A stretch of 64,000 bases of DNA from a virus. Its lineage: Duplodnaviria; Heunggongvirae; Uroviricota; Caudoviricetes. Position 1 is the first letter of the stretch, and every line of letters starts with the position of its first letter. Made by a program: the position numbers and the translations under genes. The stretch is from IMG/VR virus record IMGVR_UViG_3300045988_155182; one strand, 5' to 3'. Below are positions 4,688-61,942 of this stretch, piece by piece. The notes beneath the pieces are model-generated. The model was not told the DNA's origin. It saw nothing but the letters and a program-made list of their open reading frames with translations, and made no database searches.

Positions 4688-6028
4688 ATGACCGAACTTT
4701 GCCATACAGGACGCGGGCTGTCCGAAGAGTTTGATGAAGATTTTCAGAACAGATTGACGGCCTATTTTTGTCGTGATCACGAGTTTCTTACTCGTGCTGG
4801 AGATCTGGTTGTACCTAGCCAATTTGCCAATGCGGCCAATGCCATATTGGTTAATATGGTTTCGGGCTATTACCGTATGTACAAGAGCGCGCCCTCTTCA
4901 TCTGCGATTCTGGATATGCTTAAGCGTGCGAAACGCGATAAGACTATCCGTGAGGAACTATTCGCCGATGTTGTTGCTGCGTTTAAGCGCATCCTTGCAG
5001 AAAAATTGTCTGATACCTCGTACATGGTTGACCAGGTATCAACCTTCGCAAAAAGCGTAGCGTTTGATGATGCTCTGATTAAGGCTGCTGAACTGAAAGA
5101 GAAGGGCGACTTTCAGGGGGCGATGGCAATCATGGCCAAGGTTCAGCAGATTGGATCGAACGAAGCGACCGGAATCTATGACTACTACACCTCCGCAAGT
5201 GAGCGATTGAAAGCGCGTGAATATGAGGCTTCAGAGGAGTATGTGCCAAACAGCATTACAACTGGACTCCCTCTGCTCGATAGGTTGCTGTACCAAAAAG
5301 GCTGGGCGAAGCGTGAAATGGTGCTCTTCATGGGGTTCGCTAAATCCGGTAAATCGACCGCAATGGGTGAGTTTTCCATAAACGCAACGCTTGCTGGCTA
5401 CAATGTTCTGTATCTCTCGCTGGAGGTTCACACCAACATTTTGTCCGACCGCTTTGATGCAAGATTGTCGGAGACGGAAATGTCCAAGCTGGTGGAACGG
5501 CGCGATGAAGTTCATCGTAAGTTGGCAGAGTTGGGAGCCACTAAGGGGATTGGTAGTTTGTGGGTTGTTGAGCGTCCGTCAGGAAGTATGTCACCTGCAG
5601 ATCTGGACCGTATGCTTAACAGTATGAAAGCCAATGGCATGGTGCCTGACATGGTTGTTGTCGACTACGCAGATTTGATGCGTGCCAGTTATGACCTTCG
5701 TGATGATCGCGCCAATATTCGTAGTATCTACACCGATTTACGTGCTCTTTATGACAAGCATAACGTTGCTGGGATCACGGCATCGCAGACAAACCGTGAA
5801 GGTGGCGCGTCAGAAGTTGCCACAATGATGCACGCCGCCGATAACATCGAAAAAGTACGTATTGCTGACCTGGTAATAACGATCAACAAAACCGAAGAAG
5901 AAGAAGCGAAAGGAGAGGCTCGTCTCTACTTTGCTGGTTCACGTAACCAGCAGGGTGGGATCAGCATTCGCGTTAAACAAAACCTCGAACAAATGCGTTT
6001 CATTGAGCGAATCTTAGACGTTACCTAA
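4688..6028 (+). CDS. Replicative DNA helicase, DnaB/gp41 family
   Basis: Walker A GFAKSGKST, RecA-fold C-terminal domain with VVVDYADLM; conserved AGGAAAGCACATG start context. Confidence 0.8.
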   Translation: MTELCHTGRGLSEEFDEDFQNRLTAYFCRDHEFLTRAGDLVVPSQFANAANAILVNMVSGYYRMYKSAPSSSAILDMLKRAKRDKTIREELFADVVAAFKRILAEKLSDTSYMVDQVSTFAKSVAFDDALIKAAELKEKGDFQGAMAIMAKVQQIGSNEATGIYDYYTSASERLKAREYEASEEYVPNSITTGLPLLDRLLYQKGWAKREMVLFMGFAKSGKSTAMGEFSINATLAGYNVLYLSLEVHTNILSDRFDARLSETEMSKLVERRDEVHRKLAELGATKGIGSLWVVERPSGSMSPADLDRMLNSMKANGMVPDMVVVDYADLMRASYDLRDDRANIRSIYTDLRALYDKHNVAGITASQTNREGGASEVATMMHAADNIEKVRIADLVITINKTEEEEAKGEARLYFAGSRNQQGGISIRVKQNLEQMRFIERILDVT

Positions 6029-10000: not shown

Positions 10001-10212
10001 TCGTATTAAGTAAAAGGGAGAAAGAAACGCTTCATGAAATCAGTAAGTGGCCGGAGTTCCCTGAGTACTGGAAGCCTAAAACGCGAGCTAAGTTAGAGCG
10101 TTTAGGGTTGGTTGCAAACGTTTCTGAAACGTGGTGCTCGGCCAACTACCAGTTAACTGATAAAGGGAAAGTATTGCTACAGCAATTAGTAGAATCAGGA
10201 GTGTTAAAATGA
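9997..10212 (+). CDS. Hypothetical small protein
   Basis: 71 aa; start overlaps the ligase stop (ATGA). Confidence 0.3.
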   Translation: MIVLSKREKETLHEISKWPEFPEYWKPKTRAKLERLGLVANVSETWCSANYQLTDKGKVLLQQLVESGVLK

Positions 10213-10361
10213 TTCCATACATCTCATTAGCTTTTATGGGTGGCTTCCTTGTCGGCTTCGGCATCTGTCGTGATTTAATTAAGCAGGAACTTAAAACCAA
10301 AACACTGTGCATCGGAAAGCGTGTGTATCGGGTAGTTCATGAAACAAAGGTTAGAAAATGA
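10209..10361 (+). CDS. Hypothetical small membrane protein (50 aa, below the ORF-track cutoff)
   Basis: ATGATTCCATAC... encodes MIPYISLAFMGGFLVGFGICRDL...; coupled to neighbours by overlapping start/stop codons. Confidence 0.25.
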   Translation: MIPYISLAFMGGFLVGFGICRDLIKQELKTKTLCIGKRVYRVVHETKVRK

Positions 10362-10649: not shown

Positions 10650-11426
10650 ATTACAATGATAAGTATTTACTTACTTATCTTTTATGTATAAGATGACTTT
10701 GTTTTCGTTGAGACGCGACTGTTTGAACTTAAATACAAGTGCAAACGAAGAAGTCTATCTGGCAGTAGCCTAATAAGCCAAACACCAGCGAGGTCAGTTT
10801 CCAGCCTCGTTACCGAAATGGGATACACTGAGCGAGTGTGATTACAGAACGCAGGAGGGAACATGAATGTTCCCTCCGATGAAGTAACAGAATGGGCGGT
10901 TGGTATATTTTCAACTCCATATGACTCCCGGATTCTTAGCCACTGACCGCCCATCCTGTTACGTCATTTTGTTCAATTATGTCGTTTATACTGGGTTAAA
11001 AAGCGGCGACGTAGCCCGGCTGGTATGGTTAGCCAGCACACAACGTTGAGGCCATTACATTTTTATCAATTCTAAGGTTCTATTCACAGAGATACCGGCG
11101 AGCGTTGATATGTAACATGTTGGGCAAACATTCAATCGGAGTAGTGGCCTCAACGTTGTGAAGACAGGATTGTTGTGTAGGTTTAACCACTGTTGCCATT
11201 GGTGCCTGTTTTCACAACAAATGATTCCATACATCACATTGTATAAATTACAAAGTAGGTGCTGTCCTCAGAAACATCATCTACTTAAAGAGTTTGCCTT
11301 CTACTATTGAGCGAAGTCGAAAGCGTCTGGCACTAACGAAAAGTGCAAGTAGCGGTGCGTTTCCTGGCAGAAACTAAACCGTCGCGATTGGCACTGTTGA
11401 GTAATGAATACAGGCAGTGCTGAATT
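10650..11426. other. ORF-poor structured region upstream of the tRNA cluster (candidate ncRNA or processing region)
   Basis: No convincing ORF in ~780 bp; several long inverted repeats including a 20-bp pair at 11037-11056 / 11141-11160. Confidence 0.3.
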
Positions 11427-11579: not shown

Positions 11580-11803
11580 ATACAACGATAAGATCATTAC
11601 GGTTAATCGTCGTTCATGTGCACAATGACTGGTCGAAAGGTAGTGATCTTACCGTTGTGGTGGATTCGCAGACTGATGCGATAGCTTTCTTGGATGTTAG
11701 GGAAATGCGGCCGCAAATCTTCCCTTTCGCGAGCGGTGATCGTCCGTAGTCCTAATTGGCTGCACCGTATGCCGGAGATTCAGTACCGGCCACCACAACG
11801 GCC

Positions 11804-11890: not shown

Positions 11891-12045
11891 GACACAGCGT
11901 TGAGCGGTTTGGCCTTTTAATCAACTCGATTAAGACTCCGCTAACATAAACCAGACCGCTCAACGCTGTGATAGACAATTACGGCAGACGTTCTTAACCA
12001 TAGCTTGCTAACATCCTAGCAACACTTTTTTAAGCGCAAAATCCA

Positions 12046-12068
12046 AAGGGGCTTCGGCCCCTTTTTTG
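12046..12068 (+). terminator. Rho-independent terminator after the tRNA cluster
   Basis: aaaggggc ttcg gcccc followed by ttttttg. Confidence 0.6.
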
Positions 12069-12977
12069 TTAATGATTGCCTAGATATGATTTTAGTTCTT
12101 CTTTAATGATTAGTGAGTATTCTAAAATATCACTTAGTAAAAATTTTGCTCTGTTAAAATACCCACCAAAAGAACCTAAAATTTCAGATGGTCTTTCTAA
12201 GAGCATCACAATATCATCTTCTTGCACTTTAGTAATGTAACTTCTAACAGCTCTTTCTCCAATAACTCTTTTCTTACCGTTTATTTCAGATTCATCTAAA
12301 ACCTTATTTATAAATTTTTCTGTATCATTGAATCGTCCACTATTGTGTACTATTGTATGTCTTAGTAGTTCAATTAGCTTGATGTTAAAGCGATAGTTTT
12401 TGCCAATCTTGTTGTTTGTTTCTATCTCTTTGAAGCCAGGTATTTTATTTCTGAAAATTTTAGTTATTTTTTTCGATGGGTTACTTTTTGCTTTTAATAA
12501 TCTGTAATAAACTTCCCTTTTCCCAATTTCATCATCTTCAACCTTACCAAAATCACTTGAGGACCATAAATCATTTCGAACACATACAGTATAGACATAT
12601 ATTGCCTCAATATAGTCTTCCAGTAACTCATAGGCTTCAGTAATAACCCACTGATATTGTTTATTTTTCAAAGTATTACACAATCTTATCTTTTCTTCTA
12701 AATCAATGGCGCTGTTACCTATCTCTAATGTTGAACCTGTATATGGGTTTGAACATAAATGGCGAGCTAACGTTGTGCCACACTTAATCTTAATAGTTTC
12801 ATTAATATTAATAATAGTATCTGGATTCTGTGCATACTCCACTTCTTTAAGAAGACGTTTTATATTTTTCTTTGTTGTATCATTTATCTGATTTAAATAG
12901 TCAAAAAGTAAAGATATTTCTTCTCTAAATTCGTTGTATTTATTTTCAATCAAAGAATCAGACAACTTACCAATCAT
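12069..12977 (-). CDS. Hypothetical AT-rich protein; possible HEPN-type Abi-like protein
   Basis: 302 aa; the only sizeable minus-strand gene in this segment; strongly AT-rich codon usage; Rx4H motif (RHTIVH) near the C-terminal third; AT-rich upstream region at 12978-13150. Confidence 0.4.
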   Translation of the reverse strand: MIGKLSDSLIENKYNEFREEISLLFDYLNQINDTTKKNIKRLLKEVEYAQNPDTIININETIKIKCGTTLARHLCSNPYTGSTLEIGNSAIDLEEKIRLCNTLKNKQYQWVITEAYELLEDYIEAIYVYTVCVRNDLWSSSDFGKVEDDEIGKREVYYRLLKAKSNPSKKITKIFRNKIPGFKEIETNNKIGKNYRFNIKLIELLRHTIVHNSGRFNDTEKFINKVLDESEINGKKRVIGERAVRSYITKVQEDDIVMLLERPSEILGSFGGYFNRAKFLLSDILEYSLIIKEELKSYLGNH

Positions 12978-13150
12978 TAAAACCTCTATAAAATGTACAT
13001 TTCAAGGCAATCCTTACTGTAATCTATTGTCGTAATCACTTCAATTGTTTACTAGTCAATCAATAAGTTACTACATACTTATCAAAAAAATCTGTTTGTA
13101 GTATAGTCTGATATGTTCGAATCAATATTTATAAAGGTATTTGTTAAGTT

Positions 13151-13396
13151 ATGACGATCACTATCTACGGACGAGATAACTGCTCATACTGCAAACGTGC
13201 GGTCGAGCTGGCGAAGCAACTAAAGGGACATGGCTACGGTGATTATGAGTACATCGACATCACCACTGCCGGTATCGACAAGGAAAAACTAAGTGAAATT
13301 GTTGGTAAACCGGTAGAGACTATCCCCCAGGTGCTGATCGATGGCCAGCCGATTGGCGGATACACAGAACTGGCTGCATACGTCAGCACCCTCTGA
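13151..13396 (+). CDS. Glutaredoxin (Grx1/NrdC-like reductant for ribonucleotide reductase)
   Basis: CSYC active site (CxxC), KPVETIPQVLIDGQPIGGYTEL closely resembles E. coli glutaredoxin 1. Confidence 0.85.
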   Translation: MTITIYGRDNCSYCKRAVELAKQLKGHGYGDYEYIDITTAGIDKEKLSEIVGKPVETIPQVLIDGQPIGGYTELAAYVSTL

Positions 13397-13401
13397 TTTT
13401 A

Positions 13402-13427
13402 ACGGCTCACAGGAGCCGTTTTTATTC
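13402..13427 (+). terminator. Rho-independent terminator after the glutaredoxin gene
   Basis: acggctc acag gagccgt followed by ttttatt. Confidence 0.6.
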
Positions 13428-13606
13428 CCACCAAACTCACTCCCATTTCCCTTAAAATTCAAAAAACAACGTCAAAATGATTCCATACCTACTATGTATG
13501 GAATCATTGCTGAAAATGAGTTACTTTTACTCTTGATCCTATAAGAATCTATGCCTAATATACTGTTTACTTATACAGTGCATCGGCGTAACTCGGTGAT
13601 TGTCAT

Positions 13607-14710
13607 ATGAAAAATAGCTTTGACAGAGCACGCGCTGCGGAGAACACCTCAAAAGAGGCGATAGAGTATCTCGAAAGAGCATCTCAAATGCAGGCCGTTA
13701 TGATCTCCCAGGTCAGCAATGACATGAGATTCTCGGACGCATTCATGTTATTCACTCGCTTATCTCTGCTGATAACCAGACGTCGGCCAGAGATCGCTGT
13801 TCATTGTATTTTGATACATGTTTTGCCGCACATTGCCGATGTAAAAGTAAGTGACATTAATAGGTTCATGGTGAACCAACTGGTCAACCCACTAATACTG
13901 GATGGCAAAATTGTTATGGGCCGCCGCGTTTTCTCTCTGATGAAGCAGTTCCTTAGCTGGTGCGCCTTCCAGGGGATGATAGACGTGTCACCGTTGAACG
14001 ATATGTCACTTAACAAAGTTGCCGGTGGCGCAAAGCCCACACCTCGCGAGCGGAAGCTGACCGACGCAGAGGTATGGGTGTTCTGGAATATATGGGACTA
14101 CTTCAATGTGTGTGCTGGTACAAAATGGGCGGCCAGGCTATGTCTTGTATCCGCAAGACGACCTGACGAAGTACTGCGGGCTAAAAAAAGTGAGTTCAAT
14201 CTTAAGCGTGGGGTTTGGAATCAAGGCAAGAGGAACAAATCTGCCCGTGAGCATTCTCTGCCTTTAAGCTCATTAATGCGCACTTGTATTGAAGAGTTGT
14301 TCGAATATGGTAAAGACAGCCAGTGGCTCGTGCCTTCGAATAAAAAAATCGGGAAAGACCTTCCTATGTCTAAAGTGGCAATAGCCCAGGCATTACGTCG
14401 TATTCTGGAACGACCAGAACTGATGGAGCTTGAGCCATTTACACCCCGAGATTTGCGCCGTACTGCGCGTAGTTACTTCCCAGCATTAGGCATAAGCCAG
14501 GAGGTATCACGTAAAATCATGAACCACAGTCTTGAGGGGATAGATCGGGTCTACGACCGGCACGATTATATGGACGAGATGCGAGACGCCTTAGAAAGTT
14601 TCTCGACGTACATCGCATCAATCGTAGAGCAACCGGATTTAGACGAAATTGACCACAAATTTAAGGGAGATCGTCTATCAACAGAGCTTATTCGTGTAAA
14701 TTTTTCATAG
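13607..14710 (+). CDS. Tyrosine recombinase (integrase or Cre-like resolvase family), divergent
   Basis: C-terminal catalytic region with RRPDEV..., TPRDLRRTARSYF (R in place of the usual H of HxxR) and NHSLEGIDRVYDRHDY (box II with the tyrosine); N-terminal third not recognisable. Confidence 0.6.
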   Translation: MKNSFDRARAAENTSKEAIEYLERASQMQAVMISQVSNDMRFSDAFMLFTRLSLLITRRRPEIAVHCILIHVLPHIADVKVSDINRFMVNQLVNPLILDGKIVMGRRVFSLMKQFLSWCAFQGMIDVSPLNDMSLNKVAGGAKPTPRERKLTDAEVWVFWNIWDYFNVCAGTKWAARLCLVSARRPDEVLRAKKSEFNLKRGVWNQGKRNKSAREHSLPLSSLMRTCIEELFEYGKDSQWLVPSNKKIGKDLPMSKVAIAQALRRILERPELMELEPFTPRDLRRTARSYFPALGISQEVSRKIMNHSLEGIDRVYDRHDYMDEMRDALESFSTYIASIVEQPDLDEIDHKFKGDRLSTELIRVNFS

Positions 14711-15091
14711 AGACTTTATGGCCTCAACAACCTTTTGTGATGCGCCTTTCTCTTTACCGAATCGCTCGTTATATGCAGCAAGAACCTGTTTTTCGTCCTC
14801 GTTAAGAGGAGCAGTGCCTTCTTTGTATAAAAATGCTGCGAGTTCGGGTTGGCGTTCTTCCAGCACCATCATCATAAGACGACTTGGCTCAATGCCCAGT
14901 GCCAGCGCCAGCGGACGAACCTTATCGATAGGCAAAGGAATTTTGCCGCTTTTAATTAAAGAAAGGTTGTTGGCGTTTTTATACCCAATTGTTTTGGCTA
15001 TCTGGGCCTGGCTCATAGGTGAGGATTCAATCAACCCTGCGATAAAAGCAGCGTAGCGACTTTCTATAAATTCAATCTTGTTATCAGACAT
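14705..15091 (-). CDS. HTH (XRE/Cro-CI-like) transcriptional regulator
   Basis: N-terminal helix-turn-helix MSQAQIAKTIGYKNANNLSLIKSG; convergent with and overlapping the 3' end of the recombinase gene. Confidence 0.6.
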   Translation of the reverse strand: MSDNKIEFIESRYAAFIAGLIESSPMSQAQIAKTIGYKNANNLSLIKSGKIPLPIDKVRPLALALGIEPSRLMMMVLEERQPELAAFLYKEGTAPLNEDEKQVLAAYNERFGKEKGASQKVVEAIKSL

Positions 15092-15342
15092 GGTTACAAC
15101 CTTTGCGCGTTCAATTCTCTCTGGTAAGTGCTTACCGATATTACATCAAAGGTTAGGGTTGTAAAGCTATTATCATTTTTTTCGATAGGCACTTAAAAGA
15201 CCGGTTAAAGGCCATTGCACGGAGAAAAATTAGCCCAAAACAGGTAAGAAAATCAACTTGCATATGATATGAATGTATTCAGTATTGATACAAATTTTAG
15301 TAGTATTCCTTACCATAGTATAAGTTAGAATGGATTGATTGA

Positions 15343-19273: not shown

Positions 19274-22200
19274 ATGAAGGCACTGATGGTTCGAACTGAC
19301 TTCTCACTTGGGGAGTCGGCTCTAAAAGCAGAAAACGCGGTGAAGATTGCCAGAGAAGCTGGCTACACCGCTGTAATTTCAGCAGATAGCATGAATATTG
19401 CAAGTGTTATTCCACTACAACGTGCCGCTGGTGACGACATGGCGGTTATTTGTGGTGTGAAACTAAACATTGTTGATGATCCCACATACGAGCACCGGGC
19501 TAAACTTGCTAAAGAATCTATGAGATGTATGGAATCATTAGAGCGGGGACGTAACTACTCGTTTACCGCTCTAATTAAAAATGAGCAAGGATATCGCGAC
19601 ATCTGCGAACTAATGACGGCGGCCAACACACGAGAACAGTTCTACTTTGTACCGCGTCTCTCGCTCGAACAGTTGGTTTCTACATATGCCAAAGGCAACA
19701 TCATCCTGCTTACTTCCGACATCGGTAGCGTGTTCCAACGCAACGATTTTGCAAAAATCATAAGCACACTGATTACAGCGGGTGGAAAAGACAACTTCTA
19801 TAGTGTGGTTTATCCGCATCCTACCCCATTCTACGACCAGATTAACGTCCGGGCGATGAAAGTCGCCAGCGCATTGAAAATAGAGCCAGTGGCGTTCTAT
19901 CCCGCTTATTACGAATCGATCGACGATGCAGACATTAAAGACATTGCGCACATGGTTACGAACAACATCAAAATCGACCAGCCGCATCGTCTGCGTATCC
20001 CCCACCAGCGAGATAACGCCGTCAATGGTCGCCGCCATCTCCTTGAGGCGCTTAAAGCCTTCTCCGTTCGCATGGATGTGCCGGTAACAGCTGCAATGGC
20101 CTCAACAACGCAGGATACCATTATCGATGCCTGCACATGGCGCTGGCATGAATTGCCGCCAGCACTGCCAAAGATGGCAGACGACGAGCCTGCAACGCTT
20201 ATGAAACTGGCTGTTGCAGGGCTGCGTAAACGTCTTACCACAAAAGAGTTTGGATACACACCACCTGCTTCAGAGAACAGGGTTTATGTTGAGCGGCTAA
20301 AGTACGAAATGGACACGCTGACTCGCCTGGGATTTTGTGGTTACTTCCTGATGGTACGCGATCTGATGAATCATAGTCGTGAAACTGGCATTCCCGTTGG
20401 GCCTGGTCGTGGTTCCTCTGCCGGTTCTCTGGTGGCGTGGTGCATAGGCATAACCAACGTCGACCCAATCCGTCACGGTCTTCTGTTTGAGCGTTTCATC
20501 AACCCTGAGCGTCTCGACTTGCCGGATGCGGACTTGGACTTCAGCCAGGCACGTCGCCATGAGGTGATCGAGTATCTGAATGAACGCTACGGCGAAGATT
20601 ACGTTGCGGGTATTCCGAACTTCACCTACCTGGGCGCAGCCTCTGCACTACGTGATACCGCTCGTATTTATGGTGTGGAGTCCGCAGATATGGCGGTATC
20701 AAAAGAACTGAAGAACGCTGAGGATGATAGCCTTCCATTGGAAGAACTGCGCGAACAACTGGCAAGTCTCGACAAATACGCAACAAAATATCCTGATGCA
20801 TTCAATGCAGCCTGCAAGTTACAAAGCCTTATGCGTGGCTTTGGTAGACATGCGGCAGGGATGATCGTAGCAGGTGTTCCTCTGACAGAACGTACACCGG
20901 TTGAGCGCCGTGGTGACGCGCGTTGTATCGCATTTGACAAGCGTTACTGCGAGGCTATGGGCCTAATTAAGCTGGACGTGCTTGGCCTGGCAACTCTCGA
21001 TTTGCTCGATAGTGCAAAACGCTACATAAAAGAGAACACAGGTGAAGATATCAATCTTGATGCCATTTCTCTTGAAGATCGCAAGGTGCTGGATGGTTTT
21101 GCTGCTGGGTACACTCAAGGTGTTTTCCAGCTTGAATCAGGCCCAATGCGCAAGCTGCTTAAAGATTTAGGTGGTGGAATTGAGCCAATGAGCTTTAAAA
21201 CGGTCGTCGCTACAACTGCGCTCTTCCGGCCGGGGCCAATTCAATCAGGCATGTTGGATGACTATGTTTCTGTCGCCAAAGGCTTTATGACGCCGGAATC
21301 ATTACACCCCGTTCTTGATGAACTTACCGCGGAAACAAATGGCGTGATTCTCTATCAGGAACAGACGATGAACGCGACTCGATTGCTTGCCGGCTTCACA
21401 ATGGCTGAAGCTGACGCTGTGCGTTCCGCAATCGGTAAGAAGAACATGGAAAAAATGAAGAGCATGGGCGAGAAGTTCATCGTTCAGGCTCAAGCTGGCT
21501 GGATAGACGTTGAGCTGGAAGATGGCACTACACAGCGCATTCACCGTGCGGAACATTTTAAATGCGAAGACGGAACTCTGAAAACTGTCGAAGAGGCACT
21601 TGAGCACGGCGCAAAACTACCTATAAACGCAGTACGCGTTACAGCGTCACATCCAGGGCTATCAGAGATGAAAGCGAAGGAGATCTGGACCGCATTTGAG
21701 AAAAACGGAGCCTATCAGTTCAATAAATCACACTCCGTTGCTTATTCTTTAATCAGTTATCAGTCTATGTGGCTAAAGACGCACTACCCTGCTGAGTTCT
21801 TCGCAGCTGCGCTCACCATTCTGGGCGAGGATAAGCATCAGGGGCTGGTGAAGGATGCGCTGACCTATGGCATTCGCGTATTGCCACCAGACGTTAATGT
21901 GTCATCTAACCGAATTGAGATCCGCACACTCGAAGACGGCAGTCAGGCACTGTATGCGCCATTCTCTGCTGTGAAAGGCTGTTCTGAAAATGGTTGTCAG
22001 GCAATTATGCGTGCGCGTGAGAAAGTTGGTGGCAAATTCGAGTCAGTGGCACAATTCGATGAAGCGGTCGAGAAGCGTGCATGTAACAGTCGTGTACGCG
22101 AGTCGCTTCATAAAGTAGGGGCTTTTGCGTCAATTGAGCCAGGCAGTCTGCCAGCAACTGATCCTGAACGACTGCGCGACCAGGCTGAGCTGATGGGCAA

Positions 22201-31895: not shown

Positions 31896-32951
31896 CTATT
31901 TGCGAGTCTTTGCCTTGCGCAACTCTTCGAGAAGCGCCAGTTCTTCTTTACTCAACATGACCATTTTGCCTTCTTTTTCGTCAGGCACAACGTCGATAAT
32001 GTCATCTTGATTCTCATCTGGGAGGCTATATTCCGTCTCATCATTATCGATTTTTGTTGATATTTGTGCCTGGCGTAACTTTGGCCGCCTATAGTGGATG
32101 ACGAAGTAGACCGAGTTTCCGCGCTTAACTTCCGTGTAATCGAGATATCCTATCTCTCGCAGCTGTTCCATAGCCTTTCTTACCGTCGCATTCTGAGTAA
32201 TAGTGCGACTTGTCAGATTAAGTCTGGCGCGTAAACGGGCTAGTGATATTGGTGCCGGATCAGGCGGCAAACTTTCAATAAAAGTATAAAGCGCCTGAGC
32301 GGATTCTTTTCTTGAGAGTTCGTTTATAGCCCGGAGTTGCAGAAGAACCTTTTTGTCGAACTGGTAGAGTTCGAAAATCTTGGGATCTGCTTTCAGTTCG
32401 ACCGTATCGTGCTTGACACTATATTTTGCCGTTTGCACAAGATGCGTTACGTAAAACTCATCAGAGCCTTTGCTACGGAACGAGATGGTATTTGTGGCAA
32501 TACGGCTTAGCGAACTGTCCAGGCGTTTGCGTAACTTCGCTGATGACCTGGCGGTCGGAATGCCACACAGCCTTACAAACTCAACGAACGGCAACGTGAC
32601 AGTATCGCCAACGACCTTGTGTTTGGCAAACGCGTGGATTATTCCCACCCACGTTTTAAAGTCGTTATCCATATCAAGCCGAAGGCCAGAGATCCTTATG
32701 TCTTCGTACCCTTCGGCTTTTGCCAGAGACAGCTGTTTGAGTTCAGCAGAGGCATCCATAGAGACCATTTGCCCCTTTCTTCCTCTGGATGTCGATTTCA
32801 GCGTCGGAACGAAGAGGCCCAGACGCATCAAAGCAACAGGCTGAACAGTGTTATTAGTGTTAGGAACCAACGTAACAACTTCGCCTGTCTTTTTATCTGT
32901 TTCTGAAAATGCTTCAACGATCGCTATGTTTTTATTGCCGTTTTCGCTCAT
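31896..32951 (-). CDS. repA: Iteron-binding plasmid replication initiator (RepA, P1/IncFIB-like architecture)
   Basis: 351 aa gene flanked on both sides by arrays of 21-22 bp iterons, with DnaA boxes and GATC clusters upstream of its 5' end; protein reads as RepA-like ([18 protein letters not shown]) from memory. Confidence 0.75.
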
Positions 32952-39137: not shown

Positions 39138-39171
39138 TTTCATTGATAGGTAAGTGCTTATCTATTAACAT

Positions 39172-48545: not shown

Positions 48546-48728
48546 CGTTCCCCTACTGAAAATAAAGCCCATAGAGAGCTTTATAGTGCTGGGCAAGCCA
48601 ATCACATACCCAGCACCACAAAAACGCGCCAGAGAGCTTCTCGTTTGCATTTCTGGCGTGTTTTATTTGATTGCCAGACATAAAATCAAATGCAAAAATA
48701 GGTATTTACTTACCTATCGAGAAAGAAG

Positions 48729-50913: not shown

Positions 50914-51061
50914 TAAGTAAGTGTTTACCTATCATTTTAAATCATGTATCTTATCGGCGTCAGGATGACAATGTGTCGGTAAGACACAGTTCCAGGATGG
51001 AACGAGAAAGGCGGCTGGCAATCGCCAGCCGCAACTCTTTCTGACACTGGATGGAGTCCAC

Positions 51062-55883: not shown

Positions 55884-55944
55884 TAGGTAAATACTTACTT
55901 AATTTGTGTAAGAATGTAATAACTAAACGATAAGAGAAAAACAC

Positions 55945-61516: not shown

Positions 61517-61536
61517 TACTGTATGTGTATACAGTA
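61517..61536 (+). promoter_or_regulatory. LexA (SOS) box upstream of the UmuD'-like gene
   Basis: tactgtatgtgtatacagta = CTGT-N8-ACAG palindrome, 16 bp upstream of the ATG, with AAGAGG RBS between. Confidence 0.65.
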
Positions 61537-61552: not shown

Positions 61553-61942
61553 ATGGGCTTCCCTTCTCCTGCGGCGGATTATGCTGAGAGCCGTATTTCT
61601 CTTGATCAGCAGATAATTAGACATCCTTCAGCGACCTACTTCATGAGGGCAGCTGATAGTCATCATCGTGAGGGAATATTACAGGGTGCATTGCTGGTGG
61701 TCGATTCCTCACTTACCCCGGTTGATGGTTCTCTGCTTGTATGCGCTCTGGATGGGGAATATCGCGTAAAAAGATACCGGAAGTACCCACGTCAGCATCT
61801 GGAGGATTTAAGAACCGGTAAGAAGGAAGCATTGCCAAAGGATGACGATGGATGCACGGGCAGCAATGCCGTGTTTGGTGTGATCACTCACATTATCAAC
61901 GACGCAAGAAGTGGCGAGTTTGATGATTGTCCCGTGATGTAG
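61553..61942 (+). CDS. UmuD'-like protein (S24 peptidase fold, HumD-type, encoded already in the processed form)
   Basis: Begins MGFPSPAADYAE, which corresponds to UmuD immediately after its Cys-Gly self-cleavage site; conserved Ser (ADSHH) and Lys (GEYRVKRYR) positions present; no umuC follows. Confidence 0.8.
   Translation: MGFPSPAADYAESRISLDQQIIRHPSATYFMRAADSHHREGILQGALLVVDSSLTPVDGSLLVCALDGEYRVKRYRKYPRQHLEDLRTGKKEALPKDDDGCTGSNAVFGVITHIINDARSGEFDDCPVM

What the first reader, a model, noticed from the sequence alone, without database searches (positions are those of the whole stretch)
13607..15091. Divergent tyrosine recombinase with a convergent HTH regulator, role ambiguous
The recombinase has the C-terminal catalytic signature including the tyrosine, but shows R in place of the first His of the HxxR box, and its N-terminal third is unrecognisable. 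A Cro/CI-type HTH gene converges on and overlaps its 3' end. Given the plasmid-type replicon this may be a multimer-resolution or inversion system rather than the integrase responsible for chromosomal insertion.
Basis: partly seen in the sequence, partly recalled or inferred. Interest (0 to 1): 0.45.

Follow-up and report, generated by a model that had tools for sequence, protein, structure and literature searches.

The report
Phage-plasmid recombinase with lox-like site
This gene encodes the conserved tyrosine recombinase of a widespread family of plasmid-borne prophages (the family that includes the plague plasmid pMT1), and it sits next to a previously unnoticed lox-like target site and a DNA-damage-responsive promoter, so it most likely untangles plasmid copies, as Cre does for phage P1, rather than inserting the element into the chromosome.

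Summary
ORF 13607-14710 (+) is an intact tyrosine recombinase, and Arg replaces the first His of the HxxR box. ORF 14705-15091 (-) is an HTH gene that converges on it with a 6-nt overlap.

The window is an SSU5/pHCM2/pMT1-type phage-plasmid. About 100 nt upstream of int lies a perfect 13-7-13 palindrome (13476-13508):
- Its arms are invariant in all close relatives.
- The arms change symmetrically (TGATTCCATAC to TGACTCCAGAC) in orthologues of 44-50% identity.
- The 7-bp spacer varies freely and sometimes flips.
- There is one such site per replicon, and it always sits next to int.

In 5,426 complete E. coli genomes, int and the site occur in the same 252 genomes, always on plasmids. Homologues with the same site also occur on non-phage Pantoea and Rahnella plasmids.

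The protein descends from P4-type integrases but has lost the arm-binding domain. In this lineage a LexA box overlaps the int promoter.

Best reading: a Cre/loxP-like, self-contained module that resolves plasmid multimers and is tuned by the SOS response. The HTH is most likely the prophage repressor, not an int regulator. No function was tested directly. Three solitary copies of the arm (one inside dnaE) remain unexplained.

The parts
13476..13508 (.). Candidate recombination core site: AATGATTCCATAC-CTACTAT-GTATGGAATCATT. Left arm 13476-13488, 7-bp spacer 13489-13495, right arm 13496-13508.
   Evidence: Perfect 13-7-13 inverted repeat, unique in the window, with 0 matches in 100 shuffles. 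The 11-nt arms are invariant and the spacer varies in 8 aligned relatives, in 7 species genomes and in the roughly 70 of 80 IMG/VR loci that reach far enough upstream. Both arm changes in distant orthologues are mirrored in the other arm. The site is always 20-130 nt upstream of int.
13533..13561 (+). Sigma-70-like int promoter: TTGATC (13533-13538), 17-nt spacer, TAATAT (13556-13561).
   Evidence: Read directly from the sequence. It matches 8 of 12 consensus positions, so the consensus scan did not list it. Both hexamers fall in conserved columns of the alignment of relatives. Promoter function is inferred.
13561..13580 (.). LexA (SOS) box TACTGTTTACTTATACAGTG, overlapping the -10 and start region of the int promoter.
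   Evidence: CTGT-N8-ACAG occurs only twice in 64 kb. The other copy sits in front of a umuD-like S24 peptidase gene. It is conserved 42-46 nt upstream of the int ATG in nearly all type-A relatives. It is absent in the Chimaeribacter, Pantoea, Providencia and Xenorhabdus orthologue loci.
13607..14710 (+). int: 367-aa tyrosine recombinase with a core-binding domain and a catalytic domain but no arm-binding domain. Catalytic residues R185, K211, R281 (in place of His-I), R284, H307 and Y316.
14705..15091 (-). 128-aa HTH protein, convergent with int and overlapping it by 6 nt. Probably the prophage repressor.
   Evidence: The convergent pairing with int is conserved down to 39% identity in phage-plasmid contexts. 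It is annotated as putative repressor CYRAN_45, expressed in lysogens. It has no Peptidase_S24 domain.
15123..15136 (.). Palindrome GGTAAGTGCTTACC just downstream of the -10 of the promoter-like site for the HTH gene (minus strand, -35 at 15165-15160, -10 at 15143-15138). Candidate operator for the HTH protein.
   Evidence: Promoter-like site. The block is invariant in 6 relatives whose HTH proteins are 56-97% identical. Related sites lie in front of other operons. Binding is inferred.
13401..13420 (+). Intrinsic terminator of the upstream glutaredoxin gene. It isolates the site and int promoter from upstream transcription.
   Evidence: sequence.
10209..10223 (+). Solitary copy 1 of the arm (ATGATTCCATACATC), equal to the first five codons (MIPYI) of a small membrane-protein ORF.
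   Evidence: Its relation to int is unproven.
11221..11235 (+). Solitary copy 2 of the arm, intergenic, about 200 nt upstream of the tRNA cluster.
   Evidence: Its relation to int is unproven.
19524..19538 (-). Solitary copy 3 of the arm, antisense inside dnaE (codons for C-M-E-S).
   Evidence: The 12-mer is exact in all 80 IMG/VR loci, and the following three bases are A(T/C)C, although the flanking codons differ in more than 25 haplotypes. Its relation to int is unproven.

Best explanation
The int gene and the 33-bp palindrome about 100 bp upstream of it form a self-contained, Cre/loxP-like site-specific recombination module. It belongs to the backbone of a circular phage-plasmid of the SSU5/pHCM2/pMT1 type.

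Proposed mechanism (inferred, not shown):
- Two Int monomers bind the inverted 11-13-bp arms.
- Two sites synapse.
- Strands are exchanged across the 7-bp spacer by the R-K-R-R-H-Y active site.

Each replicon carries only one site. The only productive substrates are therefore two copies of the same plasmid: head-to-tail multimers made by homologous recombination or rolling-circle replication, or possibly the redundant ends of injected DNA. The outcome is resolution to monomers, which a low-copy plasmid prophage needs for stable inheritance.

In the E. coli, Klebsiella, Salmonella and Yersinia lineage, int transcription is additionally held down by host LexA and released by DNA damage.

The convergent HTH gene is a separate function. 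It is most likely the autoregulated prophage repressor that heads the divergent early (cobT-cobS-dnaE) operon.

Shown here: gene integrity, conservation of the catalytic residues, the site, its co-variation with the protein, its single-copy state, plasmid-only distribution, and LexA-box conservation. Inferred: binding, cleavage positions, the resolution role, LexA control and the repressor role.
For: (1) Site and gene are strictly linked.
- In E. coli the site occurs in the same 252 of 5,426 genomes as int.
- A scan of 185,579 species genomes found the full site 7 times, each 47-130 nt upstream of an int orthologue.
- Every one of the 80 IMG/VR loci that holds int has one site 126-130 nt before the ATG.

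(2) The conservation pattern is that of a recombinase core site.
- The arms are invariant while Int falls to 57% identity.
- The spacer takes at least 12 forms.
- Orthologues of 44-50% identity (Pantoea, Rahnella, Xenorhabdus, Providencia) carry TGACTCCAGAC-N7-GTCTGGAGTCA. These are two substitutions, each mirrored in the other arm. Photorhabdus has an intermediate form.

(3) There is one site per replicon.
- Apart from the one main site of each replicon, 1.8 Mb of relatives hold no copy with <=5 of 22 mismatches.
- A complete 110-kb relative has a single full site, and int is its only annotated site-specific recombinase.

(4) The element is never chromosomal: 0 of 255 places, and no chromosomal site at E<=10.

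(5) The same int-plus-site cassette, without the HTH, sits on non-phage plasmids.
- It is on a 143-kb Pantoea metabolic plasmid and in a Rahnella contig.
- It lies next to a parA-like gene on a 34-kb Photorhabdus plasmid, there with the convergent HTH gene.

(6) The protein has a simple two-domain architecture without the arm-binding domain of its nearest relatives.

(7) The LexA box is one of only two promoter-placed boxes in the genome. The other precedes a umuD-like gene. Cyrano, a 98.7%-identical phage-plasmid, is induced 39-fold by ciprofloxacin and has about 5.5 copies per cell.
Against: - No experiment or direct sequence trace (such as a resolved dimer junction) shows recombination at the site.
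- Multimer resolution does not obviously need SOS control, so the LexA box hints at an additional or different role.
- The DNA immediately distal to the site is a cargo hot-spot. That could mean the site also captures DNA.
- Three solitary copies of the arm exist elsewhere in the genome, which a pure resolution system does not need.
- Natural derivatives that lack site, int and HTH exist (phage SSU5 and IMG/VR contig L091). The module is therefore dispensable at least for lytic growth.
- pMT1 also carries a serine recombinase.
- Host XerCD could in principle resolve multimers instead.
Confidence: 0.6

Rival explanations
1. Cargo-capture platform (integron-like). Under SOS, Int recombines the plasmid site with sites on other circular DNAs and inserts accessory genes next to int. 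This would create the variable region on the distal side of the site.
For: - Homology between relatives ends 0-22 bp outside the distal arm.
- Beyond that point lie unrelated cargoes: the caf1 F1-capsule operon in Y. pestis pMT1; a 5.9-kb block with four ORFs, one annotated as gadW-like, in PhiR41; YafO toxin and colicin immunity in Klebsiella and Enterobacter; colicin and ParE-Phd in Xenorhabdus; and a low-GC 302-aa ORF in the window.
- int lies upstream-adjacent to its site and has a LexA box, which is the layout and control of integron integrases (own knowledge: Guerin et al. 2009).
- A solitary arm lies at the far end of the PhiR41 cargo.
Against: - No second full or degenerate site flanks any cargo in 1.8 Mb of relatives.
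- No attC-like repeats were noticed, but they were not searched for.
- Cargo genes lie in either orientation and often with IS remnants, as expected for ordinary illegitimate or IS-mediated insertion at a permissive spot.
- Breakpoints scatter over 22 bp instead of falling in the spacer.
Confidence: 0.1
2. Classical integrase. The palindrome is the core of an attP, and Int inserts the phage-plasmid into a chromosomal attB under some conditions.
For: - The protein's nearest sequence relatives are P4/CP4-57-type chromosomal integrases, and database records call it 'integrase'.
- From memory only: chromosomal integration of pMT1/pFra in Y. pestis has been reported (Protsenko et al. 1991). The mechanism is unknown to me.
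Against: - 0 of 255 E. coli copies are chromosomal.
- No chromosomal copy of the site was found in E. coli or in 185,579 species genomes.
- There is no arm-binding domain and no Xis-like gene nearby.
- The overlap or spacer region, which must match a conserved attB, is the most variable part and even flips.
Confidence: 0.05
3. Induction device. The main role of the LexA-controlled int promoter is to drive SOS-induced transcription through int into the convergent repressor gene. Antisense or collision interference would then lower the repressor and trigger the lytic cycle. Recombination would be secondary.
For: - The repressor candidate has no S24 self-cleavage domain, yet Cyrano is SOS-inducible.
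- Only two promoter-placed LexA boxes exist in the whole genome, and one faces the repressor gene through int.
- The tail-to-tail overlap of int and HTH, with no terminator between them, is conserved from 100% down to 39% HTH identity.
- The first terminator-like hairpin on the int strand lies inside the HTH gene (14931-14947).
Against: - The Providencia and Xenorhabdus phage-plasmids keep the convergent pair but have no LexA box at int.
- There are no transcript data.
- An antirepressor elsewhere has not been excluded.
- This reading does not exclude the resolution role.
Confidence: 0.12
4. The palindrome is only a transcriptional operator (for Int autoregulation or for another dimeric protein) and not a recombination site.
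For: - It lies just upstream of, or overlapping, the int promoter region. In Chimaeribacter and Pantoea it is 20-47 nt from the ATG.
- Solitary arms elsewhere suggest a DNA-binding function beyond recombination.
Against: - Arms of 11-13 bp separated by exactly 7 bp, with arm centres 18-20 bp apart, match the geometry of tyrosine-recombinase core sites, not of HTH operators.
- The co-variation tracks Int even on plasmids that lack the HTH.
- An intact catalytic set kept under selection in hundreds of plasmids needs a DNA substrate, and no other candidate site exists.
Confidence: 0.08
5. DNA inversion switch between two inverted sites.
For: The site's spacer is found flipped relative to int in PhiR41 compared with the window, and in Buttiauxella compared with Salmonella and Yersinia.
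Against: - There is only one full site per replicon.
- Site-specific inversion does not flip a spacer relative to its flanks.
- Small loop inversions in hairpin-forming repeats arise without a recombinase.
Confidence: 0.02

Closest known systems
Cre/loxP of phage-plasmid P1
   Same: Both are single tyrosine recombinases on a circular plasmid prophage. Both have a core-binding domain plus a catalytic domain and no arm-binding domain. In both, one palindromic core site (13-8-13 in P1, 13-7-13 here) sits close to the gene. The expected role is resolving plasmid multimers, and possibly cyclising incoming DNA (own knowledge; also stated in PMC7969092).
   Different: There is no detectable sequence relationship. 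Foldseek to Cre gives only E 7e-3 and TM 0.46, whereas lambda Int gives E 1.7e-6. The spacer is 7 bp, not 8. Arg replaces His-I (Cre has H289) and His replaces Cre's Trp315. A LexA box lies at the promoter. Activity is untested.
P4 / CP4-57 / CPS-53-type integrases (NCBIfam PRK09692; Pfam PF13356 + PF22022 + PF00589)
   Same: These are the nearest sequence relatives (about 30-35% identity). They share the core-binding domain type (2kj5, 2kj8) and the (H/R)DLRRT and VYDRHDY motifs.
   Different: The N-terminal arm-type DNA-binding domain is replaced by about 40 residues of short helices. His-I is Arg. The PRK09692 score is 33.9 bits against a cut-off of 434. The element is plasmid-only with no tRNA-linked attachment.
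Plasmid multimer-resolution tyrosine recombinases (F plasmid ResD/rfsF, pSDL2 Rsd/crs) and host XerCD at cer/psi/dif (own knowledge)
   Same: The role on large low-copy plasmids is the same, the site lies next to the gene, and there is a single site per replicon. The Photorhabdus homologue lies beside a parA-like gene.
   Different: NCBIfam returned no match to any family other than PRK09692, so none to a XerC/XerD model. No accessory-sequence architecture was recognised. Relatedness to ResD/Rsd was not tested.
Integron integrase IntI / attI
   Same: Both have a LexA-repressed promoter, a site immediately upstream of the gene, and variable genes beyond the site (own knowledge: Guerin et al. 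2009).
   Different: Foldseek to IntI is weaker than to lambda Int (2a3v, E 5e-4). No attC-like sites or cassette array were noticed (not searched for). The site is a plain double-stranded palindrome.
Type IB topoisomerases and telomere resolvases (active-site comparison only, own knowledge)
   Same: They show that the His-I position of the RKHRH/Y active site tolerates another residue (Lys220 in vaccinia topoisomerase) while catalysis is kept.
   Different: They are different enzymes. This is cited only to argue that R281 is compatible with activity.

Membership tests
Tyrosine recombinase superfamily (Pfam PF00589) | Catalytic-domain profile match above the curated threshold | tested here: met
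   40.6 bits against a cut-off of 27.1. phrog_1 'integrase' 4.8e-47.
Tyrosine recombinase superfamily (Pfam PF00589) | Active-site residues Arg-I, Lys, His-I, Arg-II, His/Trp-III and the Tyr nucleophile | tested here: inconclusive
   Five of six are present: R185, K211, R284, H307 and Y316. His-I is Arg (R281), aligned to lambda H308. The change is fixed in the clade, so it is probably functional, but activity was not tested.
Tyrosine recombinase superfamily (Pfam PF00589) | Two-domain C-clamp fold (core-binding plus catalytic) | tested here: met
   AF2 model pLDDT 84.8, pTM 0.75. Foldseek top hits are lambda Int and Tn1549 Int, prob 1.00, TM 0.55-0.74.
P4/CP4-57-type integrases | N-terminal arm-type DNA-binding domain (PF13356/DUF4102) | tested here: not met
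   There is no hit. The alignment shows the domain present in the outgroup proteins P0114-P0120 and absent in the clade. Outgroup matches start at their residue ~110-140.
P4/CP4-57-type integrases | Phage_int_M / SAM-like core-binding domain | tested here: met
   Sub-threshold for the single sequence (22.8 bits against 27). The family profile matches 2kj5, 2kkv and 2kj8 at E 1.8e-14 to 6.6e-5.
P4/CP4-57-type integrases | Curated family score (NCBIfam PRK09692) | tested here: not met
   33.9 bits against a cut-off of 434.
P4/CP4-57-type integrases | Integration of the element into a chromosomal (usually tRNA/tmRNA) attB | tested here: not met
   0 of 255 E. coli copies are chromosomal. The site is absent from chromosomes.
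Cre/loxP-like simple recombination systems (functional class) | A single recombinase without an arm-binding domain, and a minimal site of two inverted 11-14-bp arms around a 6-8-bp spacer | tested here: met
   13-7-13 site. The arms are conserved and co-vary symmetrically. The protein is arm-less.
Cre/loxP-like simple recombination systems (functional class) | Recombination between two sites without accessory proteins | not testable with these tools
   Needs an in vivo or in vitro assay.
Cre family (sequence) | Sequence or close structural similarity to Cre | tested here: not met
   There is no sequence hit in the PDB. Foldseek to Cre gives E 7e-3 to 0.09, weaker than to lambda Int.
XerC/XerD | Match to a curated XerC/XerD model | tested here: not met
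   NCBIfam returned only PRK09692. The profile hit to XerD 1a0p is weak (E 6.5e-6) and ranks below lambda Int.
Integron (IntI/attI/attC) | attC-type folded single-strand sites and a cassette array next to attI | not tested
   No search for attC-like repeats or folded single-strand sites was run. No second copy of the palindromic int site exists in the flanks (<=5 of 22 mismatches), but that scan does not detect attC sites. The cargo genes seen in relatives are heterogeneous in orientation.
Integron (IntI/attI/attC) | LexA box in the integrase promoter | tested here: met
   CTGT-N8-ACAG at 13563-13578, conserved in the lineage. LexA binding itself was not tested.
CI/Cro-type (XRE) HTH repressors (for ORF 14705-15091) | HTH_3/HTH_19-type domain above threshold | tested here: inconclusive
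   HTH_19 scores 19.7 bits against a cut-off of 30.2. phrog_8 transcriptional regulator 1.3e-11. There is no NCBIfam hit.
CI/Cro-type (XRE) HTH repressors (for ORF 14705-15091) | RecA-dependent self-cleavage domain (Peptidase_S24) as in lambda CI | tested here: not met
   There is no S24 hit. The protein is only 128 aa.

The most novel reading that the evidence does not exclude
The int/site pair is an SOS-inducible gene-capture platform of the pHCM2/pMT1/SSU5 phage-plasmids. On this reading, Int-mediated recombination at the 13-7-13 site would have placed unrelated accessory operons immediately beside it, including the Yersinia pestis F1 capsule (caf1) locus. The solitary arm copies would be Int-binding relics or regulators of that process.
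Probability: 0.1. Interest if true: 0.75.

Novelty: new variant of a known kind. Interest (0 to 1): 0.5.

Why it matters
- This phage-plasmid family is common. It occurs in 4.6% of complete E. coli genomes (252 of 5,426). PLSDB holds about 790 plasmids with an Int at least 80% identical to this one, and the matching records come mainly from Klebsiella, Escherichia, Enterobacter, Yersinia and Salmonella. The family includes Y. pestis pMT1. Databases label its only site-specific recombinase 'integrase' although the element is never found integrated.
- Identifying the cognate 33-bp site makes the function directly testable.
- It explains how these low-copy prophage plasmids could stay monomeric.
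- It offers a compact candidate Cre-like recombinase/site pair in two natural specificities (TGATTCCATAC and TGACTCCAGAC arms) with an unusual Arg at the His-I position.
- It links the recombinase to the SOS response.
- It flags the adjacent DNA as the place where virulence and defence cargo accumulates.

Tried and rejected
- Single-sequence search of the PDB: no hit. The question was settled with a family profile and a predicted structure instead.
- Search for a partner site (attL/attR, inverted partner, or degenerate second site): none with <=5 of 22 mismatches in 1.8 Mb of relatives, apart from the one main site of each replicon. None in the complete 110-kb relative. None on chromosomes. 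Inversion and integration were rejected on this basis.
- Deletion between solitary copies 1 and 2: loci with a single copy simply do not reach copy 1, and the flanks are those of copy 2. Rejected.
- RNA-RNA pairing between copy 1 and dnaE mRNA. The 20-nt complementarity seen in the window is not kept in relatives. Only the 15-mer is conserved, and the flanks do not co-vary. Not supported.
- Co-variation test for the solitary arms. Type-B phage-plasmids (Providencia, Xenorhabdus) have no solitary arms of either type, and their DnaE lacks the CMES segment. A Pantoea plasmid has none within 25 kb either side of int. The test was therefore uninformative.
- PhiR41's different left flank as an inversion product: it is foreign DNA with no match in the window. 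Rejected.
- Rfam scan of 9.8-20 kb: only tRNAs.
- PADLOC: no hits for int, the HTH or the 302-aa cargo ORF.
- Literature. Nothing in the held library describes the site or the recombinase's function. Gilcrease & Casjens 2018 is not held.
Full report
**Observation**

They lie tail-to-tail with a 6-nt overlap. The first scores above Pfam's threshold for the tyrosine-recombinase catalytic domain. The second gives only a sub-threshold HTH_19 hit, plus a clear PHROG 'transcriptional regulator' match.

**Context**

The window is part of an SSU5/pHCM2/pMT1-type phage-plasmid.
- The 4 kb around the finding is 98.5% identical to Escherichia phage CMS-2020a and 98.7% identical to Cyrano (pLF82).
- A Rep3-type initiator (31896-32951) and a ParA-like ATPase (676-1344) are present.
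- The neighbours are a tRNA cluster, glutaredoxin, CobT/CobS-like genes and DnaE.
- The recombinase is a backbone gene. About 790 PLSDB plasmids carry it at >=80% identity. Of the 1,081 matching records, 989 are typed non-mobilizable. The listed examples are about 100-140 kb IncFIB replicons and include Y. pestis pMT1 (86%).
- It is present in 252 of 5,426 complete E. coli genomes.

**The protein**

Homologues form a tight Enterobacterales clade (44-100% identity). At 50% clustering this clade is represented by only two other full-length clusters among 1.84 billion representatives. Scores then drop sharply (324 to <=145 bits) to ordinary P4/CP4-57-type integrases of about 400 aa.

Those relatives carry the PF13356 arm-binding domain. 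The clade does not: its first ~40 residues are short helices instead.

A family profile matches solved core-binding domains of P4/CPS-53-type integrases over aa 41-148 (E 1.8e-14). It aligns the catalytic domain to lambda Int with R185=R212, R281=H308, R284=R311, H307=H333 and Y316=Y342. The AlphaFold model (pLDDT 84.8) superposes best on lambda Int 75-356 and Tn1549 Int.

It is a fixed trait of the clade. It occurs in 105 of 107 members in which the motif was found, against one full-length protein (plus one clade fragment) in about 150 outgroup proteins. The 'unrecognisable' N-terminus is a normal core-binding domain.

**The site**

Ninety-nine nucleotides upstream of the ATG lies AATGATTCCATAC-CTACTAT-GTATGGAATCATT (13476-13508). 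It is a perfect 13-7-13 palindrome, unique in the window and absent from all shuffles.

- In an alignment of eight relatives (Int 59-99% identical) the 11-nt arms are invariant and the 7-bp spacer differs. Everything to the left of the site is unalignable.
- A scan of one genome from each of 185,579 species for the two arms found seven loci, each 47-130 nt upstream of an int orthologue.
- All IMG/VR loci that contain int have one such site 126-130 nt before the ATG.
- Orthologues of 44-50% identity in Pantoea, Rahnella, Xenorhabdus and Providencia have TGACTCCAGAC-N7-GTCTGGAGTCA at the same place. These are two base changes, each mirrored in the other arm. Photorhabdus has an intermediate form.
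- This symmetric co-variation with the protein, together with the geometry (11-13-bp arms, 7-bp spacer), is what a tyrosine-recombinase core site should look like.

**Copy number and location**

A complete 110-kb relative has one full site, and int is its only annotated site-specific recombinase. Apart from the one main site of each replicon, 1.8 Mb of relatives hold no copy with <=5 of 22 mismatches. In E. coli the site is found in exactly the genomes that have int and never on a chromosome.

The spacer is the part that would have to match a chromosomal attB. Here it is the least conserved part and is even found flipped relative to int. The window has CTACTAT and PhiR41 has ATAGTAG. Salmonella and Yersinia have CTATTAA and Buttiauxella has TTAATAG.

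All this fits recombination between copies of the same plasmid. It argues against integration and against inversion.

The same int-plus-site cassette, without the HTH, also occurs on a 143-kb non-phage Pantoea plasmid and in a Rahnella contig. On a 34-kb Photorhabdus plasmid it lies beside a parA-like gene, there with the convergent HTH gene. These are settings in which multimer resolution is the expected job.

**Regulation**

Between the site and the ATG are a conserved promoter-like TTGATC-N17-TAATAT and, overlapping its -10, a LexA box TACTGT-N8-ACAGT (13561-13580).

CTGT-N8-ACAG occurs only twice in the 64 kb. The other copy precedes a umuD-like S24 peptidase gene (61519-61534, ORF 61553-61942). 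In the complete relative these are the only two promoter-placed boxes.

The box is conserved in the E. coli, Klebsiella, Salmonella, Yersinia and Enterobacter lineage. It is absent in the Chimaeribacter, Pantoea, Providencia and Xenorhabdus orthologue loci. It is therefore an add-on to an older int/site module. LexA binding is inferred. Cyrano is induced 39-fold by ciprofloxacin (PMC9928086).

**The HTH gene**

Its convergent pairing with int is conserved down to 39% identity in phage-plasmid contexts. It is also paired on the Photorhabdus plasmid but is missing in Pantoea, Rahnella and Chimaeribacter.

Upstream of it, just after a promoter-like -10, is an invariant palindrome GGTAAGTGCTTACC (15123-15136). 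This palindrome is unrelated to the int site. Similar sequences lie just upstream of four other + strand ORFs (6 found against 1.5 expected).

The gene diverges from a 70-aa ORF and the cobT-cobS-dnaE operon. In Cyrano it is listed as the putative master repressor expressed in lysogens. It has no S24 domain. Phage SSU5 and one IMG/VR contig have lost the site, int and the HTH together.

I conclude that it is most likely the prophage repressor and not a dedicated int regulator. An SOS-driven int transcript running into it is a possible, untested induction route.

**Mechanism and rivals**

Best explanation (0.6): a Cre/loxP-like module that resolves plasmid multimers, and perhaps cyclises incoming DNA, and that is tuned by LexA.

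Rivals:
- an integron-like cargo-capture role (0.1);
- an SOS induction device acting by convergent transcription (0.12, not exclusive);
- an operator-only role for the palindrome (0.08);
- chromosomal integration (0.05);
- inversion (0.02).

**Unexplained**

The 15-mer ATGATTCCATACATC (the arm plus ATC) occurs at three further places. It forms the first five codons of a small membrane-protein ORF (10209). It lies in the intergenic region before the tRNAs (11221). It lies antisense inside dnaE (19524-19538).
- These are exact 12-mer matches where about 0.01 would be expected.
- They are conserved at synonymous sites in all 80 IMG/VR loci although the flanking codons vary.
- In the window they lie within about 6 kb of int, and in the Klebsiella plasmid within about 6.2 kb. 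None occur elsewhere in 110 kb.
- They persist in SSU5, which has no int. They are absent in the type-B phage-plasmids.
- Whether Int binds them is unknown.

**Comparison and verdict**

In function the module resembles Cre/loxP and plasmid ResD-type systems. In descent it is an arm-less offshoot of the P4-type integrases. It fails the membership tests for P4-type integrases (domain, curated score, integration) and for the Cre and XerC/D families.

I found no description of the site or of the enzyme's role in the literature available here.

Novelty: a new variant of a known kind. Interest 0.5. The system is ordinary in principle. The site, its two natural specificities, the Arg active-site variant, the SOS link and the solitary arms are new and directly testable.

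Noticed in passing
window 10209-10223 (+), 11221-11235 (+), 19524-19538 (-): There are three solitary copies of the int-site arm extended by ATC (ATGATTCCATACATC). One forms the start codon and first codons (MIPYI) of a small membrane-protein ORF. One lies upstream of the tRNA cluster. One is antisense inside dnaE (codons C-M-E-S). They are invariant at synonymous positions across relatives. In the window they lie within about 6 kb of int and point towards the main site from both sides. They are absent from type-B (TGACTCCAGAC) phage-plasmids. Function unknown.
   Followed up: partly
window 61519-61534 and ORF 61553-61942 (+): A second, near-consensus LexA box (TACTGTATGTGTATACAGTA) lies directly upstream of a 129-aa Peptidase_S24 (UmuD-like) gene. 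Together with the int box it appears to make up the whole plasmid-borne SOS regulon.
   Followed up: partly
window 15123-15136; also 39149-39162, 48701-48714, 50916-50929, 55886-55899: The palindrome GGTAAGTGCTTACC lies at the HTH gene's promoter. Related sequences (1-2 mismatches) lie just upstream of four other + strand ORFs (6 found against 1.5 expected). In a complete relative the related copies are often embedded in a longer motif that ends in TATC. This may be the operator set of the prophage repressor or a phage promoter element.
   Followed up: partly
window ~11900-13475; L004/L100 (pMT1), L099 (PhiR41), L005, L006, L110: The DNA just outside the distal arm of the site is a cargo hot-spot, and homology between relatives ends 0-22 bp from the arm. 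The cargoes are: a low-GC 302-aa ORF of unknown function in the window (12069-12977, 36% GC region); the caf1 F1-capsule operon in Y. pestis pMT1; a 5.9-kb foreign block with four ORFs (one annotated as gadW-like), an IS remnant and a solitary arm at its far end in PhiR41; YafO toxin and colicin immunity in Klebsiella and Enterobacter; and colicin/pyocin and ParE-Phd in Xenorhabdus.
   Followed up: partly
window 13489-13495 vs L002 5883-5889; L013 vs L003/L004: The same 7-bp spacer is found in opposite orientation relative to int in closely related plasmids (CTACTAT/ATAGTAG and CTATTAA/TTAATAG). Most spacers read CT(A/T)NNNN from one arm, so the site has a polarity that is not fixed with respect to int.
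   Followed up: partly
L098 (Salmonella phage SSU5, NC_018843 42525-42761) and L091 (IMG/VR 106-kb contig, junction at 5603/5604): Two natural derivatives lack the site, int and the HTH together. In SSU5 everything between tRNA-Asn and cobT is missing. L091 has a 2.2-kb deletion whose ends are not at the site. Both losses would remove the candidate repressor.
   Followed up: partly
window 14213-14224 (-); L016 18801; L100 30912: The codons for the conserved V-W-N-Q of Int itself read GT(A/T)TGGAATCAA. This is a near copy of the site's right arm (1 mismatch in Klebsiella and Yersinia, 2 in the window). It is probably coincidence.
   Followed up: no
window 11580-11803: The window has about 220 nt between tRNA-Thr and tRNA-Ser that Cyrano lacks. 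A 99.9% relative (for the int region) instead carries a fourth tRNA (Tyr) in the cluster. The tRNA cluster is therefore variable between near-identical plasmids.
   Followed up: no
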